A stretch of 64,000 nucleotides of DNA from an uncultured Verrucomicrobiae bacterium (GTDB taxonomy: Bacteria; Verrucomicrobiota; Verrucomicrobiia; Chthoniobacterales; Chthoniobacteraceae), in assembly GCA_963769025.1 (NCBI GenBank), contig CAVYKI010000003.1:640001-704000 (forward strand). The letters run 5' to 3'. Of this stretch, positions 11,141-23,836 are shown piece by piece. A model generated the notes under the pieces. The model saw only the letters and a program-made list of their open reading frames with translations. It was not told the DNA's origin and searched no databases. How positions within the stretch are numbered: the stretch's first letter is position 1; each line of letters opens with the position of its first letter. The position numbers and the translations under genes are program-made.

Positions 11141-12859
11141 ATGAAAACTTCGCGCATCCTCCTTGCATCCATCCACCTCTTTGCGGCGTTCGCCGTCATC
11201 GCCCACGCCGATGACGGTTTTATTTTTTCCACCACGGGGGATGGCCTGAGATGGCGGGCGCCTGTCACGTGGCCCTCGGTTCACCTGCGCATCACCGGCG
11301 ACAAGATTGCTCCTTTCGAGCAAACCGTCGGTTCATCGAGCCAGTTTTCGGTGCCTCTCAGCGGACCGGGCGGGCCAGCCCTGCCGGACGGGGTTTACAA
11401 GTGGGAAGTGGTCGGGCAGCCGGTGATGAGCCCGGCATTGGCCCAGAGCCTCTCCGCCGCCCGAAAAGCGGGCAACGACGCCGCAGCCGCGAGCATTCTG
11501 GCTGCCGCAAACCTGCCCCAAGGCGTCCGGACCTCCGGGGCGTTCAGTGTCCTCAACGGGAAGCTCGTGCCAGCCGACGCGGAGGAGCCTGCCGCCCAGC
11601 AAGCCGCGGCGCCCGCCGGGAATCTTGCCCAAAGCGGTCCGCTCATTCCTCTCTCCGGCGTCGTAGCGCCGGATTCGGTGACCAATGACGACCTGATCGT
11701 GATTGGCAGCCTCGCGGTCGGTCAAGATGCCATAAATGGCGAAAACTTCGGATTCGACACTTTCCGCCTGAAGGAAAACAACCTGCGCATCCATTTTGAC
11801 GACACGAGCAACACCGCCTCGTTTCCCGCCAACGACTGGAGAATTGTCATCAACGACACCACCAACGGAGGTGGCAGTTTTTTCGCCATCGAGGACTCCA
11901 CTGCCAACCGGACGCCCTTTAAAATCGAGGCGGGCGCCAAAACCAATGCCCTCGTCGTCGACGACGCCAGTCGTGTGGGCATTGGCACTGGCACCCCTGT
12001 GGTGAACCTGCACATCGTCACTGGCAATACTCCGACCGCACGGCTGGATCAGGACGGCTCCTCCGGGTTTACGCCGCAGGTTTGGGACATGGCTGGCAAT
12101 GAAACCAATTTCTTCATCCGTGACGTCACCAACGGTTCGAGGCTGCCCTTCCGGATCCGCCCCAACGCGCCGACGAGCAGCATCGATATCGCCGGTAGCG
12201 GCAACGTGGGCTTGGGAACGTCCGCTCCGGCGACAAGACTCCACCTGCAGTCGACTAACACTGACATCGCACTCCGCATCCAGCAGACCGCTGGGACCGT
12301 TCCTTCGAGTTGGGATTTTACCAACAACTCAGCAACGGGACGCCTGAATATCACCGACGACACGACATCCATGCGGATCCCCTTCAAGATGGGCCCCGGT
12401 GCGCCCAATAATCTGTTTCGGATCGGCATTCCCGCCGTGAACACCGTGGAAGTGAACGGCACCCTGACCGTGAATGGGACCTTCAACAACCTGTCGAGCC
12501 GTGAGTTCAAGAATATCGTGCCGGGCGTCGATAGCGCTTCGGTTTTGGAAAAAATCGCCAGCCTGCCGCTTTTCACATGGTCGTACAAGGATAGCAATGG
12601 GGAGCGCCACTTCGGCCCCGTGGCCGAGGATTTCTATGCGCATTTCCAGCTCGGGACGGATGAGAAACACATCTCGCCAAACGACATGGCGGGAGTCGCG
12701 CTGGGCGCGATCAAGGGCCTCCATGAGCAGCTCCGGGAGCGGGATGCCCAGATCAAGACCCTGCGCCAGAAGAGCGACACGCTCGAACAGCAGATGAAGG
12801 CGCTGACCGAAGCGGTCGAAGCATTGAAGGTGGGAAGCCCTACGAAAGCCTCGCCCTAA
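11141..12859 (+). CDS. Secreted tail-fibre-like protein with three beta-rich repeats, C-terminal peptidase S74 (intramolecular chaperone) domain and coiled coil
   Basis: Signal peptide ending AVIAHA. Three W..F/L.I.D.T...PF.I/M repeats, two followed by VGI/LGT..P. S74 motifs SSREFK, LP..TWSYK, HFGPVAEDF, D..GVAL.AIK.L, then a heptad coiled coil. Confidence 0.85.
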   Translation: MKTSRILLASIHLFAAFAVIAHADDGFIFSTTGDGLRWRAPVTWPSVHLRITGDKIAPFEQTVGSSSQFSVPLSGPGGPALPDGVYKWEVVGQPVMSPALAQSLSAARKAGNDAAAASILAAANLPQGVRTSGAFSVLNGKLVPADAEEPAAQQAAAPAGNLAQSGPLIPLSGVVAPDSVTNDDLIVIGSLAVGQDAINGENFGFDTFRLKENNLRIHFDDTSNTASFPANDWRIVINDTTNGGGSFFAIEDSTANRTPFKIEAGAKTNALVVDDASRVGIGTGTPVVNLHIVTGNTPTARLDQDGSSGFTPQVWDMAGNETNFFIRDVTNGSRLPFRIRPNAPTSSIDIAGSGNVGLGTSAPATRLHLQSTNTDIALRIQQTAGTVPSSWDFTNNSATGRLNITDDTTSMRIPFKMGPGAPNNLFRIGIPAVNTVEVNGTLTVNGTFNNLSSREFKNIVPGVDSASVLEKIASLPLFTWSYKDSNGERHFGPVAEDFYAHFQLGTDEKHISPNDMAGVALGAIKGLHEQLRERDAQIKTLRQKSDTLEQQMKALTEAVEALKVGSPTKASP

Positions 12860-12875: not shown

Positions 12876-15800
12876 ATGATCGCGCATGGAAAGTGGGAAT
12901 GCGGCGTGCATTTGCTGACGGGCGTCGCGCTCGCCTGGCTGGGAGCGGGACAGCTGGGCGCGCAGAACGCGGTCGATCCGATCCTCGGCTCGATCCGGCA
13001 GCTCGAGGATAAGAGCGATCCCAAGTGCCATGCCACCGCATCGCGGCTGGAGAACTTCATGTTCGGAACGCCGCTCACCGACGCGGTGCGTTTCCAGAAA
13101 AACGGGTATCTGAAGGAGTTCATCCGCGGCGCATGGGCACGGGCTTCGGAGCTTGCCCGCGAGCAGAATGCGACGGAAATCGACGCGGCGGTGATGACGA
13201 AGGCCTTCGCCTCCGAACCGGAAGTCGTGGAGGAAAAAGGCGAGTTCGTGGTCAAGACCTCGCCGGCTCCGATCCGCATTGGTTCGCGTGACAAGCGCCA
13301 GTATTCCAGCGTGGCTTACGCGCTTCGCGCCATCCTGGCGGTCCAGCAGGAGGCTTCGCTGAGCGAAGGCCGCCTGTCGCTCGTGCCGCTCAAGCCGGAG
13401 GCCGTCGCGGCGCTCAAGGAGCGGGCCGACATCTATGTGCTCGCTTTGCTCAATCTCGCCGATCGCCATGCGCGAAAGGAAGTTCGCTTTGAGATCGGCC
13501 CCGGGGACATGGAGCAAGGCTGGAAGGAACTCGGCCTGACGGGCACTCCCGCGCCAAAGTCCGGCCCGTCGAAGACCGGCAAGGATTCGCTGCTGCGGGC
13601 CGTCATCACCCAGAAAGTCGCATCCTTTGCGGCTTACAATCAGGTTTCCAACGAGCTGTTTGTGCGGAACCTCCAGGTCTATTTTGCCAAGCGGCGGTGG
13701 CCGGAAACGGCGGAGCAGGGAAAGCAGGTGAAGGATTTTTTTGTAAATGCAGTCGTGGGTTTTGGCGCTGCACTCTACGAAGCGGCCCAGGAGCGTGCGC
13801 GGACCCGGGGCGACACCCTGGTGAGGGAGGAGGATGTCTTCGACGCAGTGCAGCGTTTCACGCCCTATAGCGTCAACGAATACGAGGATGTGGTCTTTTT
13901 CCCACGCTTGGAAAAGGAGCGGCTGACGATCGAGGCGTACGACTTGGATTCATTCCGGGACAGCGGGTTCCACTGGACCTATCTCGGTTTCGCGCTCGAT
14001 GACATGGGAGGCAAACTGGCGATCGATGCGGATCCCTTCGCGGCTGAATTGCTCTCCGAGTCCATCGCGCAGTTCGGAGTGCTGCTGCTTCGGATGGCCG
14101 GCCAGGTCGCGATCGATGCCTCGCAGGAGAGGCTCTCGATTTCCGCCTTTGAGTCCGCGATGACCGAGATGCAGCGGCGCATCGTTCTGCACGGCGAGGC
14201 GCCGCTCCGGAAACCCAAGGAAGTGGCAATCGCGTCTTCTGCGACGCCGCGCGAATCGTCCACGGGGGCCAGGTTTTTTTCCGACGTCACGACTGAGGCT
14301 GGGATCCAGTTCGAGCACCGTTCCTCGGATTGGCTCTCGCGTCTCCTGAGAGGCTATCTGACGAAGCCGGACGGGAAAGGAGTCATCACAATCCCGCCGG
14401 CCTTTGGAGGTGCCGGACTTGCCGCCGAGGACATCGACAACGACGGCGACATCGACCTGATCGTTCTCAGCGGAGCCGGCAACCGCCTTTACCTGAACGA
14501 TGGAAAGGGCGTCTTCACCGATGCGACCGCGACCTCAGGGCTCGACTGGCGCCGTCCGGACGGTCACCCCGGCGAGCCGCGCCAGCCGATCATTGCCGAC
14601 TTTGACAATGACGGCATCCAGGACGTGCTCATCACCTACGTGGACGATGCCCACCGGCTTTATATGGGGCTTGGGAATGGCCGGTTCAAGGACGTCACCG
14701 ATGGGTGCGCCCTCGGCGGCCAAGGCGTGGTGGGCGGCCCGGTCACCGTGCTCGACGTGGACAAGGATGGCCTGCTGGATATCTACCTCGGTTACTTCGG
14801 CGATTATCCCCGCGGGGTGCTGCCGACGCTCGCGCGGCGCAACCGGAATGGCTTGCCGAACAAATTGTTCCGAAATCTCGGGGGCATGCGCTTTGAAGAC
14901 ATTTCCGAAAAAAGCGGGACGGCCGACCGGGGCTGGGCGCAGTCGGTCGGGCATACCGACTTCGATGGGGACGGATGGCAGGACATCATCGTGGGAAATG
15001 ATTTCGGGGTGAACGTGTACTACCGGAACCGGCACGACGGCACCTTTGAGGATGTCGCCGAAAAAATGGGTGCCTCCAAGCCGTCCTTTACCATGGGAAT
15101 CGGCATCGCGGATCTGAACCGGGATGGCATCCCTGACATCTACATCGCCAACATCGTGACGATGAACAAGGATCAGAAATATGTCCTGCCCACCGAGGAC
15201 ACGGTCCAGACGTTCGACCTGCGCAAGCTGGCGAACATGCGCGTGGTGGAAGCCAACGACCTCTTCATCTCGACGCGCGGCGCAAGCGGGCTTCCCCGTT
15301 ACGAACTCTCGAATCTGGTGGACCGGGGCTATTCCTCCACGGGGTGGTCGTGGGGCGCGGATTTCTTCGATTTCGACCACGATGGCGACGAGGATCTCTA
15401 CGTGCTCAACGGCATGAACGACTTCAACGTCTATGGCCGGGAAAACCCCTATTACACGGACCCGCACAGCGATCAGAAAGTAGCGGTCACCTTCCCGCCC
15501 AGTCAGCGGGAAAAGAATGTGCTTTTCATCAACGACGCCGGCCGGTTCCAGGACGCGAGCGATCAGAGCGGGCTCGACATCCTTTCCAACTCCAGGAGCG
15601 CCGCCTACTTCGACTTTGACGGGGATGGCGACCTCGATATCGCCATCAACAACTATCACGGACCGGCGGTCCTGTTTCGCAATAACACCAATTCCAGAGC
15701 CGGTTCATGGCTGAGCATCCGCCTCACCGGCGACCCCAAGCGGGGAGTCTCCCGCGACGCGATCGGCGCCACCGTCCTCGTCAGCGGCGAAAAACTGAAG

Positions 15801-16013
15801 AACATCTGGCGCGAAGTCCACACGACCACCGGCTATCTCACCGGGCACCCGAAGGAGCAGCATTTTGGCGTCGGCCACGAGAAGGCGCTCTCCGCCGAAG
15901 TGCGCTGGCCCGACGGTCAGGTGCAGCGCTTTGCCGACGTGAAACCCGGGATGCGCTACCGGTTGGTTCAAGGCCAGAAACTCGAGGCCTCGACACCGGA
16001 CGATCCGCGTTGA
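12876..16013 (+). CDS. Secreted protein: four putative histone folds + FG-GAP beta-propeller + ASPIC/UnbV domain (CRTAC1-like)
   Basis: Hydrophobic N-terminus. Four alpha1-L1-alpha2-L2-alpha3-like units in aa ~52-435. Seven DxDxDG-type Ca-binding loops (DIDNDGDID, DFDNDGIQD, DVDKDGLLD, DFDGDGWQD, DLNRDGIPD, DFDHDGDED, DFDGDGDLD). UnbV motifs DAIGATV, HFGVG and VRWPDG. Confidence 0.85.
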   Translation: MIAHGKWECGVHLLTGVALAWLGAGQLGAQNAVDPILGSIRQLEDKSDPKCHATASRLENFMFGTPLTDAVRFQKNGYLKEFIRGAWARASELAREQNATEIDAAVMTKAFASEPEVVEEKGEFVVKTSPAPIRIGSRDKRQYSSVAYALRAILAVQQEASLSEGRLSLVPLKPEAVAALKERADIYVLALLNLADRHARKEVRFEIGPGDMEQGWKELGLTGTPAPKSGPSKTGKDSLLRAVITQKVASFAAYNQVSNELFVRNLQVYFAKRRWPETAEQGKQVKDFFVNAVVGFGAALYEAAQERARTRGDTLVREEDVFDAVQRFTPYSVNEYEDVVFFPRLEKERLTIEAYDLDSFRDSGFHWTYLGFALDDMGGKLAIDADPFAAELLSESIAQFGVLLLRMAGQVAIDASQERLSISAFESAMTEMQRRIVLHGEAPLRKPKEVAIASSATPRESSTGARFFSDVTTEAGIQFEHRSSDWLSRLLRGYLTKPDGKGVITIPPAFGGAGLAAEDIDNDGDIDLIVLSGAGNRLYLNDGKGVFTDATATSGLDWRRPDGHPGEPRQPIIADFDNDGIQDVLITYVDDAHRLYMGLGNGRFKDVTDGCALGGQGVVGGPVTVLDVDKDGLLDIYLGYFGDYPRGVLPTLARRNRNGLPNKLFRNLGGMRFEDISEKSGTADRGWAQSVGHTDFDGDGWQDIIVGNDFGVNVYYRNRHDGTFEDVAEKMGASKPSFTMGIGIADLNRDGIPDIYIANIVTMNKDQKYVLPTEDTVQTFDLRKLANMRVVEANDLFISTRGASGLPRYELSNLVDRGYSSTGWSWGADFFDFDHDGDEDLYVLNGMNDFNVYGRENPYYTDPHSDQKVAVTFPPSQREKNVLFINDAGRFQDASDQSGLDILSNSRSAAYFDFDGDGDLDIAINNYHGPAVLFRNNTNSRAGSWLSIRLTGDPKRGVSRDAIGATVLVSGEKLKNIWREVHTTTGYLTGHPKEQHFGVGHEKALSAEVRWPDGQVQRFADVKPGMRYRLVQGQKLEASTPDDPR

Positions 16014-19672: not shown

Positions 19673-21046
19673 ATGCACGATTACTTCGTCGAGTTCAGCT
19701 ACCTGTTCGCGTCGGTCTTCTTCATCATCGGGCTGAAGAGCCTGAGCCACCCAGACACCGCGCGCCGCGGGATGCACCTCGCGGAGATCGGCATGCTGCT
19801 GGCGATCATCGGCACGCTGCTGCACAAGGACATCATCTCCTACGAGTGGATCGTCGTCGGCCTGGTCATCGGCGGAACCATCGGCGGAATTCTCGCGCAG
19901 CGCGTGGCCATGACTGCGCTGCCGCAGCTCACCGCGCTCTCGCACGCCTTCGGCGCGCTCGCGGCCACGCTCGTCGGCATCGCCGAGTACGCCCGTCACG
20001 GCGCGGACATCGGGGCGCCGAAGATGATCGCCATCGGCATCGAGGTGCTGCTCGGAGCGCTGACGACCACCGGGAGCGTCATCGCGGCCGCGAAGCTGCA
20101 CGAGCTCATGCGCGGCCAGCCGATCACTTTCAAAGGCCAGAACTATGTGAACCTCGGCATCCTCGCAGTCGCGCTCGGCGCGCTCGTGGTCCTGCTCTTC
20201 AGTCCCGGCGCGGCGTTCGCCTTTTACCTCATGCTGGCGCTCGCGCTGATCTTCGGGCTCATGCTCGTGCTGCCCATTGCCGCCGCGGACATGCCGGTCG
20301 TCATGTCGCTGCTGAACGCCTACGCCGGCCTCGCCGCGACCGCGACCGGCTTCGCCATTTCAAACAACGTGCTGATCATCGCGGGCACGCTCAACGGCTT
20401 CTCCGGCTTCATCCTCTCCGTGCTCATGTGCCGCGCGATGAACCGCTCCATCACCAACGTCATCTTCGGCGCATTCGGAAGCGCCACCGGCGCCGCGACC
20501 GCATTCGCAGGCGGCGAGGCCCGCGAAATCAATCTCGAGGACGCCGCGACGCAGCTCGCGTACGCGCGGCAGGTCGTCTTCGTCCCCGGCTACGGCATGG
20601 CCACCGCGCAGGCGCAGCACGTCGTCCGCGAGCTGGCGTCCGTTTTGGAAGAGCGCGGCGTGACGGTGAAATATGCGATCCATCCCGTCGCCGGCCGCAT
20701 GCCGGGCCACATGAACGTGCTGCTCGCCGAGGCCGACGTGCCATATTCGCAGCTCTACGAACTCGAGCAGATCAACTCCGACTTTCCCAACACCGATGTC
20801 GCCATGGTCATCGGCGCCAACGACGTGGTGAACCCCGACGCCCGCGACAATCCCGGCAGCCCCATCGCCGGCATGCCGATCCTCGACGTGGATCGCGCGC
20901 GCTCCGTCATCGTGCTCAAGCGCGGAAAGGGAAAGGGCTTCGCCGGAATCGAGAACCCGCTCTTTTTCAAGCCGAACACCGGGATGCTCTACGGCGACGC
21001 GAAGGGCTCGCTCAGCAAGCTCGTGCAAGCTGTCGAGCAGGCGTAG
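19673..21046 (+). CDS. pntB: NAD(P) transhydrogenase beta subunit
   Basis: ADMPVVMSLLN, AMNRS, VPGYGMA.AQAQH, HPVAGRMPGHMNVLLAEA, GANDVVNP. Confidence 0.97.
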   Translation: MHDYFVEFSYLFASVFFIIGLKSLSHPDTARRGMHLAEIGMLLAIIGTLLHKDIISYEWIVVGLVIGGTIGGILAQRVAMTALPQLTALSHAFGALAATLVGIAEYARHGADIGAPKMIAIGIEVLLGALTTTGSVIAAAKLHELMRGQPITFKGQNYVNLGILAVALGALVVLLFSPGAAFAFYLMLALALIFGLMLVLPIAAADMPVVMSLLNAYAGLAATATGFAISNNVLIIAGTLNGFSGFILSVLMCRAMNRSITNVIFGAFGSATGAATAFAGGEAREINLEDAATQLAYARQVVFVPGYGMATAQAQHVVRELASVLEERGVTVKYAIHPVAGRMPGHMNVLLAEADVPYSQLYELEQINSDFPNTDVAMVIGANDVVNPDARDNPGSPIAGMPILDVDRARSVIVLKRGKGKGFAGIENPLFFKPNTGMLYGDAKGSLSKLVQAVEQA

Positions 21047-21064
21047 TCCGCAACGAGCGCGCGC

Positions 21065-21858
21065 TTAGGTTCCGCGGTAGGAAGCGAGCACCTCCGTGCG
21101 GGTCCACCGCTGGAAGAGGCCGCGGCTGTCCACGGGATGAAAAGGCAGCACGTCCGAGTAGCCGGGAATGATCACCTGCACGACAGGAAACCCGATTTCG
21201 GGATCGGTCAGGTCCACGACGATGAAGTCCTTTCCCAGCGTCTCGCAGATGTCGCGGGCGTGGATCGATGGTCGGGACGACCATGCGGTTGCGAAGCACG
21301 GTGATGTGCGCGCGCCGCTCGAAAATCTCGTGCGCGGCGTGGATGATCGCTTCCTCGATGTTGTTTCCCGTCGCCTTGCCGTTCGGGCCACCGATGAGTC
21401 GCACGTATTCCAGCGGCACCTTCAGCGTCCGCTCCTGGATCAGCGAGTAGCCGTCCACCCAATGAAACGCATCGTCGAGTGCGCGGATGCGATCGAGGAC
21501 CGGAGGCGTCGCAGTGGCGATGTGGCCGAGCAGGGATGCGATCGGCAGCGCGTCCGGCACCTCGTGCTCGCGTGCGCCGAGGTAGCCGGGCAGTTCACCG
21601 GTCGCGCGTGCGGTGAGCCATTCCGCGCCCTCGGCGAGCGCGCCGGCGGTGCTGCACGCGGGCGTGACGCCTTTGCGCATGGAGCGGAAGTCGAGTGCCT
21701 TCGATGAACATCGCCGTCCAGTGCAGATGCTCGGAGAGCGTTTCCTCGTGCAGCCAGAAGTCGTGCCGCGGACGGATGAGGGCGTCGAGCCGCGCGATGG
21801 TCTCGGCGGGATCGACGCAGCGATCGTGCGCGAGCTTGAGGCGGGACTGGAGCTTCAT
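21065..21858 (-). pseudogene. YcaO-like protein with a large internal deletion and frameshifts
   Basis: KL..DRCVDPAETI, (G->R)KG.T..S.A..LAE..E, NG.ATGNNIEEAI.HA.HEIFER, joined directly to the C-terminal VVDLT.PEIGFPVVQVIIPG. Only ~265 codons. Confidence 0.75.
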
Positions 21859-22170
21859 TTGGAAAAGTCCCGATGGATCGCATCGGCTGCTGCGAGTCCT
21901 TCGGCCACGCAATGGCTCACGGACGCGCCGCCATTCACGAGAGCGCCGGCGGTGTAGATGCGGGCGGCGTGGCCGGAAACCGCTGCACGGACGCCGTCCT
22001 CGACCTGAAGTTCCATCGCCTCGATGACGAGTCCCACGGGCAGCACCGTTTCCGTGTGCAACTCCGCATGACGGATGCGCACTCCGCGCAACTCACCTTT
22101 CTGATCTCTCTCATGGCGATGAGGAAGAATGGCGAGAGAAACATGGGGGCGGCCTGATCGGAATACGACC
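21855..22170 (-). pseudogene. C-terminal remnant of a GltD-like FAD/NAD(P)-dependent oxidoreductase
   Basis: GELRGVRI...LVIEAM...IYTAGALVNGGASVSHCVAEGLAAADAIH resembles the GltD/PreT C-terminus. No N-terminal part is present. Confidence 0.5.
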
Positions 22171-22398
22171 GCCTAAGGCCCGGCACTGTGCGGGCCAGCG
22201 CTCATGCAGGCTGCTGCCAAATCAAGCATCGCAGCAGCATTTGCAACCGGACTGCACGCGGCAAAATCCCAACTTGGCACCCAACGCCACACGCCGTCCG
22301 AAATCCGCCACGACGTGATTCTCCCAACCCGCGCTTCCCCTCACGACGTCGGAGGCTTTTCACCTTCCTGCCCGAGGCGATCTCCGCTAGTGGCAGGA

Positions 22399-23836
22399 AT
22401 GCCGGACAGCACCGCTCCGAAACCCGCGCTCAGCCAGACCATCGGGGGCTGGCAGATCCTGTTTTACGGCCTCGGCTCCATGCTCGGCGCGGGCATCTAC
22501 GCGCTCATCGGCAAGGCGGCGGCGGGGCTCGGCAACGCGACGTGGCTCGCCTTTCTGATGGCGATGATCGGCGCGATGCTCACCGGCCTTTCGTATGCGT
22601 GCGTGGGCGGACGCTATGCGAAGGCCGGCGGCGCGGCCTACGTCACGCAGCGCGGCCTGCGCAAGCCGCTGCTCAGCTACGTGGTCGGCATCGCGGTGAT
22701 GATGAGCGGCCTCACCAGCATGGCCACCGGCTCGCAGGCGATCGTCGGGCAGTTCAGGGAACTCTTCGGCGTGGCACTCGATGACACGACGAACAAGCTG
22801 CTCTCCATCGGCATCGTCTTTCTCGTCGGCTGCGTGATCTACCGCGGCATCCGCGAGAGCATGTGGCTGAACATCGTCTGCACCGTCATCGAGGCGGCCG
22901 GCCTGCTTTTCATCATCGCCGTCGGCGTGCGCTACTGGGGCGGCGTGAACTACCTCGAATCGCCCGGCGACACCGCTGGCCGGCGGCGCGGGATCGGGCA
23001 TCACGCTCGCGCTCGTCATGCAGGGCGCGGTGCTCACGTTCTATTCGTTCATCGGGTTCGAGGACATCCTCAACGTCAGCGAGGAGGTGAAGAATCCCTC
23101 GCGCAACGTGCCCTTCGGCCTCATCGGCGCGATGATCCTCGCCACCGTGCATCTACATGGCCGTCGCCATCACCGCCGTCTCCGTCGTGCCGTGGCAGGA
23201 GCTGGCGAAAAGCGACGGCGCCGCTCATGGAGGTGGCCCGGCGTGCGGCGCCGTGGTTCGTCGGCATCAAGCCCGTCTATCGGCTTCATCACCATCTTCG
23301 CCATCGGCAACACCGCGCTGCTCAACTACCTCATGGGCTCGCGCCTGCTCTACGGCATGAGCCGCCAGGGCCTGCTGCCCGCCGTGCTCGCGAAGATCCA
23401 TCCGAAGCGCCACTCGCCGCACGTCGCCGTCGCCGTGCTCTTCGGCATCGTCTCGCTGCTCATCCTCAGCGGCGGCGTGAAGCAGCTCGCGGAATCCACC
23501 GTGCTGCTGCTGCTCTCGGTCTTCACGGTCGTGAATGTCTCGCTCGTCGTGCTCAAGCGCCGCCCCGGCGAGCCGCGCGGCGGATTCGAGCCGCCGCATG
23601 ATCGTGCCCGTGCTCGGCGCGCTGGTCTGCGCCTCGCTCATCGTCGTCCGCGTGCAAAGTCGCGCATCACCAGCGCCGACACCGCGCAGCGCACCGCGCC
23701 GCTCATCGCCGGCGCGATCATCCTCGATCAGCCTCGTGCTCTACACGGTGCTCAAGCCGAAGACCCAGGTCGCCGATCCCAGCCTCCGGCGGACGGATGG
23801 GAATCGCAACCTAGACCGCTCGCATTGTCCGGTTAG
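22399..23836 (+). CDS. APC-family amino acid permease; several frameshifts, 3' end approximate
   Basis: GLGSMLGAGIYALIG, YAKAGGAAYV, FYSFIGFEDILNVSEEVKNP and SRLLYGMSRQGLLP across ORFs 22204, 23018, 23157 and 23535. Confidence 0.88.

What the first reader, a model, noticed from the sequence alone, without database searches (positions are those of the whole stretch)
13029..14180. Four tandem histone-fold-like units in a secreted FG-GAP beta-propeller protein
Seen: the ~430-aa N-terminal part of ORF 12876..16013 has four copies of a short helix, a loop, a ~29-residue helix ending in A..(.)A, a loop and a short helix. The units are HF1 (aa ~52-112) TDAVRFQKNGYLKEFIRGAWARASELAREQNATEIDAAVMTKAF; HF2 (~147-219) KPEAVAALKERADIYVLALLNLADRHARKEVRFEIGPGDMEQG; HF3 (~258-328) VKDFFVNAVVGFGAALYEAAQERARTRGDTLVREEDVFDAV; HF4 (~365-435) DPFAAELLSESIAQFGVLLLRMAGQVAIDASQERLSISAFESA. 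Known: archaeal HMf-type histones read roughly S.DA..AL...LEE....IA..A...A.HAGRKT(V/I)K.EDI..A. Inference: this is a single-chain pseudo-tetramer of histone folds attached to an integrin-like Ca-binding propeller plus UnbV domain, and exported. Only HF2 keeps the R-x6-D clamp (RFEIGPGD), so DNA binding may be degenerate or repurposed (scaffold, extracellular DNA binding, host-chromatin mimicry). Routine annotation would call it only 'CRTAC1 family'. I recall prokaryotic-histone surveys listing a beta-propeller-fused class, but I cannot verify that here and know of no assigned function.
Basis: partly seen in the sequence, partly recalled or inferred. Interest (0 to 1): 0.92.

Follow-up and report, generated by a model that had tools for sequence, protein, structure and literature searches.

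The report
Exported four-histone-fold protein with thioredoxin partner
This bacterial gene encodes an exported protein with four histone-shaped units that lack the usual DNA-gripping motif but keep one unpaired cysteine, a histidine and several acidic residues, and its relatives usually sit beside a thioredoxin-like gene, so the DNA-spool fold may have been reused as an enzyme outside the cytoplasm.

Summary
Observation confirmed. ORF 12876-16013 (1045 aa) has a signal-like N-terminus, four histone folds (a duplicated doublet; model pLDDT 91) and a CRTAC1-like propeller plus UnbV domain. The family is already catalogued: homologue A0A545TSM9 is labelled 'Beta-propeller' in Schwab 2024's source data, whose description I could not read. 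This scan noted the architecture before in another genome (e1-6732447). DNA binding looks unlikely: RxTxxxxD occurs in at most 3 of 254 sequences per fold, median charge is -8, and weak covariation joins the doublets through their alpha1 (DNA-binding) faces. An exported CHWC-thioredoxin/DUF255 gene adjoins the gene in 46 of 63 loci and 13 of 13 further genomes, against 0 of 54 other UnbV loci, but not in this window. Best reading (0.5): an exported cysteine/histidine/carboxylate enzyme built on histone folds, kept reduced by that partner. No coordinates, substrate or activity were obtained.

The parts
12876..16013 (+). Whole gene, 1045 aa (P0001); true start may be the GTG at aa 11
   Evidence: the 85%-identical P0002 starts at the aa-11 position; single copy in G000
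12876..12962 (+). Signal-peptide-like N-terminus (aa 1-29)
   Evidence: hydrophobic core then small residues; region variable among homologues; proxy positive in 101 of 120; SignalP not run
12978..13013 (+). Extra helix alphaN1 (aa 35-46) with invariant E44
   Evidence: model; couplings R41-A249 and D45-S250 to alphaN2
13026..13028 (+). Invariant cysteine C51 at the N-terminus of HF1 alpha1
   Evidence: 201 of 202 unique full-length members; only cysteine of the aligned mature chain in 72 of 138; kept in 4 of 4 paralogues at 20-22% identity
13029..13214 (+). Histone fold HF1 (aa 52-113)
13215..13316 (+). Beta-hairpin and helix linker of doublet A (invariant D139)
13317..13529 (+). Histone fold HF2 (aa 148-218; R151, Q158)
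13590..13640 (+). Extra helix alphaN2 (aa 239-255; K247, Y254, N255)
13650..13859 (+). Histone fold HF3 (aa 259-328)
13860..13976 (+). Linker of doublet B with the D356-x-D358-x-x-R361-D362-x-x-x-H366-W367 motif (H366 codon 13971-13973)
13968..14198 (+). Histone fold HF4 (aa 365-441) with E391-x3-E395
14271..15680 (+). FG-GAP beta-propeller with seven Dx[DN]xDG motifs
   Evidence: Pfam FG-GAP_3 E 9e-44; motifs; best Foldseek match murine CRTAC1 9etn, E 5e-27, TM 0.73 by target
15759..15959 (+). ASPIC/UnbV domain (aa 962-1028)
   Evidence: Pfam E 5e-14
11141..12859 (+). Upstream signal-bearing 572-aa gene with a C-terminal Peptidase_S74 chaperone domain; 16 bases separate it from the gene; recurrent neighbour
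   Evidence: Pfam E 1.3e-6; relatives near the gene in 12 of 38 locus groups, 0 of 54 control loci; both genes have lower GC (0.61-0.62) than eight neighbours (0.645-0.70)

Best explanation
An exported enzyme, possibly metal-dependent, built on histone folds. SHOWN (computed): a duplicated histone doublet, each preceded by an extra helix, fused to a CRTAC1-like propeller; a conserved polar core of one cysteine (C51), one histidine (H366), carboxylates (E44, D139, D356, D358, D362, E391, E395) and R151/R361/K75; loss of the DNA-binding motif; tight linkage of relatives to an exported CHWC-thioredoxin/DUF255 gene. INFERRED: the doublets pack by their alpha1 faces, which in histones bind DNA, so that C51 of doublet A meets the Asp/His motif of doublet B in one cleft. 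C51 acts as nucleophile or redox/metal ligand. The thioredoxin partner keeps it reduced or feeds it electrons, as DsbG does for single-cysteine periplasmic transpeptidases. The propeller binds calcium and presents substrate. GUESSED: the substrate is a cell-surface component, such as the Ig-repeat or S74-type surface proteins often encoded next door.
For: C51 in 201 and H366 in 200 of 202 full-length members, both in 199. Thirteen polar positions survive in four paralogues 20-22% identical; D362-x3-H366 and E391-x3-E395 have the spacing of same-face helix ligands (inference). In the 5 forms that have an N-terminal signal but lack doublet A, H366 is kept in 2, against 17 of 19 equally divergent four-fold forms (Fisher p 0.04); polar positions 37 of 60 against 194 of 228, structural positions 41 of 50 against 164 of 190. 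Top couplings between halves: N193-L261, R41-A249, D45-S250, A149-L240; N193-L261 and R41-A249 also lead by a second method. Thioredoxin/DUF255 gene directly downstream in 46 of 63 loci (13 of 23 groups at 75% identity) and adjacent in 13 of 13 further genomes, against 0 of 54 other UnbV loci. CHWC intact in 52 of 52 BLAST-selected partners, a second C-x4-C at the C-terminus in 19 of 64; DsbD_N hits. Whole-chain pTM 0.89 suggests fixed docking on the propeller. Precedents: PMC3526765 (passage); bioRxiv 10.1101/350652 (abstract).
Against: No model coordinates were available, so no C51-H366 distance was measured. Covariation is weak (effective depth 197 for 410 columns), many lower-ranked pairs are noise, invariant residues give no signal, and the face classes were drawn after the fact. 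The thioredoxin gene is not beside this window's copy (a relative lies on contig C9), nor beside the 4 paralogues in G809, nor directly downstream in 10 of 23 groups. The controls reach only about 1.5 kb past UnbV and cannot show an upstream partner. The loci are related, so counts are not independent (L175 is identical to L013). Two of 5 doublet-only forms keep the His motif without any C51; one four-fold member has Ser at 51. No catalytic family was matched. Conserved salt bridges could be purely structural.
Confidence: 0.5

Rival explanations
1. Non-catalytic surface binding protein: the histone module is a rigid ligand- or metal-binding head, and C51 forms an intermolecular disulfide or one metal contact that the thioredoxin partner makes or breaks.
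For: The C-terminal half is CRTAC1/integrin-like; large Ig-repeat genes lie directly upstream in 5 of 5 such neighbours scanned from the G401 order; the same conservation and linkage data fit.
Against: Near-total retention of one Cys, one His and seven carboxylates down to 21% identity is more typical of chemistry than of adhesion (general knowledge); H366 decays when the cysteine-bearing half is lost (n=5).
Confidence: 0.25
2. The neighbour is the enzyme: the thioredoxin/DUF255 protein modifies surface proteins or glycans, and the histone-propeller protein is its scaffold or chaperone.
For: Abutting or overlapping genes in most loci; sulfate-activation and glycosyltransferase genes follow in some loci.
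Against: The histone-propeller gene persists without the neighbour, with its core intact, in this window and in four G809 paralogues.
Confidence: 0.12
3. One reading: a single-chain histone tetramer that binds extracellular DNA or mimics host chromatin.
For: The histone fold is real; several arginines on alpha1 and the start of alpha2 are conserved (R57, R72, K75, R151, R264); 14% of 182 domains are net positive.
Against: RxTxxxxD anywhere in the L2 window in 3, 1, 0 and 1 of 254 sequences for HF1-4; median net charge -8; alpha1 faces appear covered by extra helices and the other doublet; the best viral multi-histone match aligns 515 columns only at rmsd 22.7 (both are predicted models); named carriers are annotated as environmental bacteria.
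Confidence: 0.08
4. The units are AAA+ lid (C-domain) repeats, not handshake histone folds.
For: The strongest Pfam member hits are lids: Cdc6_lid in 19 of 43, LonB lid in 10 of 43 and 7 of 55; AAA+ chains follow the histone rows.
Against: Unbroken 28-32 residue central helices; double histone folds align 126-148 residues against 57-91 for AAA+ chains; cross-unit couplings L79-V188, G297-I397, A94-V170, R273-A412; lids and histones share the helix-strand-helix motif by descent (PMC1847821 abstract).
Confidence: 0.05

Closest known systems
'Beta-propeller' category of prokaryotic histones (Schwab et al. 2024, PMC11390915)
   Same: Same family: A0A545TSM9 (= P0022), 45% identical over 95% of aa 30-460, E 1e-103, carries this label; 28 accessions are so labelled.
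   Different: The main text never mentions the category (0 hits for 'propeller' or 'signal peptide'). Its description is in Supplementary Table 2, which was too large to read, so what it says on fold number, export or function is unknown to me.
Double histone folds: DUF1931 (1wwi, 1r4v), Methanopyrus HMk (1f1e), single-chain H2A-H2B, Marseillevirus doublets
   Different: Two doublets in tandem, beta-hairpin linkers, extra N-helices, signal peptide, propeller, Cys/His/carboxylate core; 8-15% identity.
CRTAC1 / ASPIC-UnbV family (9etn)
   Same: Propeller plus UnbV domain, E 5e-27, TM 0.73 by target.
   Different: A 430-residue histone module in front; other UnbV loci lack the thioredoxin/DUF255 neighbour (0 of 54).
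H3-H4 tetramer copper reductase (bioRxiv 10.1101/350652)
   Same: Precedent for enzyme activity in histone folds, at an interface between two histone units (abstract and headings).
   Different: That site is at the H3-H3 interface (C110 recalled as late alpha2); C51 here caps alpha1, in an exported single chain. Analogy only.
Single-cysteine periplasmic enzymes protected by DsbG
   Same: A lone essential cysteine in an oxidising compartment with a dedicated reductase (PMC3526765 passage).
   Different: Unrelated folds; the partner here is a thioredoxin/DUF255 protein, often with a DsbD_N domain; the interaction is untested.

Membership tests
Histone-fold superfamily | Three helices with a long central helix and two strand-like loops | tested here: met
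   four units, central helices 28/28/32/28
Histone-fold superfamily | Handshake pairing, HF1/HF2 | tested here: met
Histone-fold superfamily | Handshake pairing, HF3/HF4 | tested here: inconclusive
   not superposed on its own; supported by homology to the first pair and couplings
Histone-fold superfamily | Profile match to a histone family above cut-off | tested here: inconclusive
   none for this protein; 1 of 43 and 1 of 55 members, weak; Atlas features 0.75-0.86 to archaeal clusters, some with CBFD_NFYB_HMF, below the 0.9 mark
Schwab 'Beta-propeller' histones | Full-length homology to a listed member | tested here: met
   A0A545TSM9 = P0022; 1 of the 10 proteins looked up matched the list
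Schwab 'Beta-propeller' histones | The authors' written definition (Supplementary Table 2) | not testable with these tools
   file too large to read
Nucleosomal / face-to-face DNA-binding histones | RxTxxxxD motif in L2-alpha3 | tested here: not met
   at most 3 of 254 per fold; motif defined in PMC11390915 passage
Nucleosomal / face-to-face DNA-binding histones | Dimers linked through alpha3 and the alpha2 C-terminus | tested here: inconclusive
   0 of top 30 inter-half couplings (2.6 expected), weak and post hoc; no coordinates
Nucleosomal / face-to-face DNA-binding histones | Exposed basic alpha1 face, cytoplasmic location, DNA binding | tested here: inconclusive
   net charge and signal proxy point against; surface electrostatics and binding not testable
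CRTAC1/ASPIC-UnbV family | FG-GAP propeller followed by UnbV_ASPIC | tested here: met
Cys/His or metal-dependent enzyme | Conserved residues clustered in one cleft, and activity | not testable with these tools
   conservation shown; distances and activity not available
AAA+ lid (C-domain) | Central helix broken and folded back, attached to an ATPase domain | tested here: not met
   unbroken helices; no ATPase domain

The most novel reading that the evidence does not exclude
A secreted bacterial enzyme whose active site is formed where the former DNA-binding faces of two histone doublets meet (C51 from one, Asp/His/Glu from the other), working with a dedicated exported thioredoxin/DUF255 protein as a two-gene system that matures cell-surface proteins: a histone-fold catalyst unrelated to chromatin.
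Probability: 0.4. Interest if true: 0.9.

Novelty: new member of a known kind. Interest (0 to 1): 0.66.

Why it matters
The fusion is on a published list, but I found no text that describes it or gives it a function (searches; one key supplement unread). Routine annotation calls it CRTAC1. If the reading holds, histone folds can carry a catalytic site outside the cytoplasm, on the surface that normally binds DNA. That bears on the open question of non-chromatin roles of prokaryotic histones, and would give the DUF255 thioredoxin family a first candidate client. Two point mutants and one partner make it directly testable in named, cultured-type carriers such as Aliikangiella coralliicola or Pleionea litopenaei.

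Tried and rejected
Complex prediction of doublet A with doublet B, the propeller and zinc: no verdict, no contacts given; not used for or against anything. RNA run search: no RNA holder listed; no evidence on expression. Single-sequence PDB search and half-A profile search: nothing relevant. NCBIfam: no family for the protein. Plasmid collection and viral contigs: not found with these queries. Promoter/terminator scan: counts near shuffled background, nothing usable. Stand-alone histone module: 41 shorter hits and 150 of 280 representatives listed are mostly N- or C-truncated; P0131 (434 aa, 110 kb contig) ends inside HF4 and was not followed up; longer fusions were not searched. Selenocysteine at position 51: no stops inside the 19 half-A matches; the 80 of 246 metagenome loci kept were the best-scoring, so not a full test. 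Internal Cys-Gln thioester (C51-Q158) considered: Q158 lies about ten residues along alpha1 from the positions that couple with the cysteine loop (S47-A149, S47-V146); set aside, not excluded. Tree: quick search only, many open forks; doublet-only forms are scattered on long branches and two four-fold forms branch deepest, which suggests loss of doublet A but was not tested formally. No own PF00808 histone found in G000 (83% complete). Literature on DUF255 function: nothing on a bacterial role.

Full report
1. Observation. The ORF at 12876-16013 encodes 1045 aa and contains the four quoted segments. Pfam finds FG-GAP repeats (E 9e-44) and UnbV_ASPIC at aa 962-1028 (E 5e-14), and nothing above threshold in aa 30-461. 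A search with aa 30-460 found 588 relatives among 8000 candidates scored; all 120 listed carry FG-GAP_3. AlphaFold2 on 118 sequences gives a confident model (pLDDT 91.4, pTM 0.91) with the layout [extra helix, HF, hairpin and helix, HF] twice. The halves are homologous (hhalign 91%, E 9e-7; 82% and score 41 against at most 25.6 in 50 shuffles), so the module is a duplicated doublet.

3. Export. The region before the domain is variable and has a hydrophobic stretch in 101 of 120 homologues, against 3.5% of windows in the mature domain; most of the 19 misses have short, probably truncated starts. This is a proxy, not SignalP.

4. DNA binding is unlikely. PMC11390915 defines RxTxxxxD as the nucleosomal and face-to-face motif and the alpha1 face as the DNA-binding face (section 6 and passages seen). 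The motif occurs in 3, 1, 0 and 1 of 254 sequences for HF1-4. The top couplings between halves are N193-L261, R41-A249, D45-S250 and A149-L240. Of the top 20, 6 join alpha1-face elements (1.4 expected) and none joins the four-helix-bundle faces (1.7 expected). This is weak: depth 197 for 410 columns, classes drawn after the fact. Against this reading, several basic residues on alpha1 are conserved.

5. What is conserved. It is in 201 of 202 unique full-length members, H366 in 200, and it is the only cysteine of the aligned mature chain in 72 of 138 (this protein has one more, C611, not conserved). Four paralogues in G809, 20-22% identical over the module, keep E44, C51, K75, D139, R151, D356, D358, R361, D362, H366, W367, E391 and E395, and lose R57, R72, Y148, Y254, N265, E353 and R406. 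Five forms have an N-terminal signal but only doublet B; four other B-only rows (P0206, P0209, P0233, P0282) were left out as probable truncations, and three of them keep H366. Among the five, H366 is kept in 2, against 17 of 19 equally divergent four-fold forms (p 0.04), while P330, F342, G364, W367 and G409 are kept in all five.

6. Gene context. In 89 loci (38 groups at 75% identity; 80 are the best of 246 metagenome hits), a thioredoxin/DUF255 gene lies directly downstream on the same strand in 46 of the 63 loci with a full gene and at least 600 bases downstream (13 of 23 groups). In 13 further genomes found with a half-A profile it is adjacent in all 13 (11 downstream, 2 upstream); one is identical to an earlier locus; the four G809 paralogues lack it. 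Among 54 other UnbV loci none has it within about 1.5 kb, while 2 of 5 family loci in that set do. All 52 BLAST-selected partners keep CHWC, 46 have a hydrophobic stretch before the thioredoxin domain, and 19 of 64 end in a C-x4-C segment where Pfam finds DsbD_N. This window lacks the neighbour; a relative with a possible signal lies on contig C9. Here the partner is an S74-chaperone gene, seen in 12 of 38 groups. Large Ig-repeat genes are often directly upstream. The gene is patchy: 2 of 401 genomes in the host's phylum, 11 of 401 and 5 of 301 in two other groups; the lower GC of the two window genes fits recent acquisition.

7. Mechanism. The simplest account of a lone invariant cysteine in an exported protein, a His/carboxylate cluster that decays when the cysteine half is lost, and a linked exported reductase is a reactive site between the two doublets (0.5). 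DsbG protection of single-cysteine transpeptidases (PMC3526765, passage) and the H3-H4 copper reductase (10.1101/350652, abstract and headings) are precedents by analogy only. Clustering, metal, activity, partner binding and substrate are all inferred; no coordinates were available. Rivals: non-catalytic binding head (0.25), scaffold for the neighbour (0.12), DNA binder (0.08), AAA+ lids (0.05).

8. What is known. P0022 is A0A545TSM9, labelled 'Beta-propeller' in the source data of PMC11390915 (30 of 56 places seen; 28 accessions, then repeats). The main text and the preprint's main text have no 'propeller'; the review file has none; Supplementary Table 2 could not be read and may already state the fold count or export. 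Searches listed no paper describing the family; the library lacks most subscription papers. Passages of PMC10627809, PMC11789641, PMC12758564 and PMC6822775 did not cover it.

9. Verdict. Real feature; new member of a catalogued but apparently uncharacterised family. The added value is the Cys/His/carboxylate core and the specific thioredoxin/DUF255 linkage, which give a testable non-DNA function. Interest 0.66; 0.9 if the enzyme reading holds (probability 0.4 for the full two-gene version).

Noticed in passing
window 11141-12859 (+): Signal-bearing 572-aa protein with a C-terminal Peptidase_S74 chaperone domain and coiled coil, as in trimeric fibre proteins (recalled); relatives recur near the histone-propeller gene in either orientation.
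   Followed up: partly
L010 (G290:C1:2382977-2387227): The only other copy found in the host's phylum is broken: one in-frame TGA in the first linker and, read by eye, an apparent frameshift near the start of HF1. Pseudogene or assembly error.
   Followed up: partly
L185, L186 (G809:C1): A 2.4 Mb genome holds four divergent paralogues, two in tandem, with 5-7 cysteines each and no thioredoxin/DUF255 neighbour.
   Followed up: partly
P0293; P0273, P0299, P0257, P0238: Doublet-B-only forms, two with lipobox-like N-termini; in P0293 the doublet is followed by TPR-like sequence instead of a propeller (read by eye).
   Followed up: partly
L003:11385-13112, L172, L177, L178, L180, L181: Sulfate-activation genes (ATP sulfurylase/APS kinase by Pfam in L003; similar by eye in L172, L177, L178) or glycosyltransferases (L180, L181) follow the thioredoxin gene.
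   Followed up: no
L044:5568-6125, L175:2443-2913: A small signal-bearing gene with no NCBIfam (L044) or Pfam (L175) hit lies between the thioredoxin gene and the S74 gene; the L044 family occurs in 4 locus groups.
   Followed up: no
window aa 481-492, 567-570, 759-769, 789-792 of P0001: Propeller loops carry many family-invariant polar residues (H481, R489, R492, E567, R569, Q570, K765, R789, E792), a possible second functional surface or the docking face.
   Followed up: no
window 21012-22027 and 22204-23836: ORFs appear split into pieces (a YcaO-like fragment set and an amino-acid permease, named by eye), suggesting frameshifts or assembly errors.
   Followed up: no
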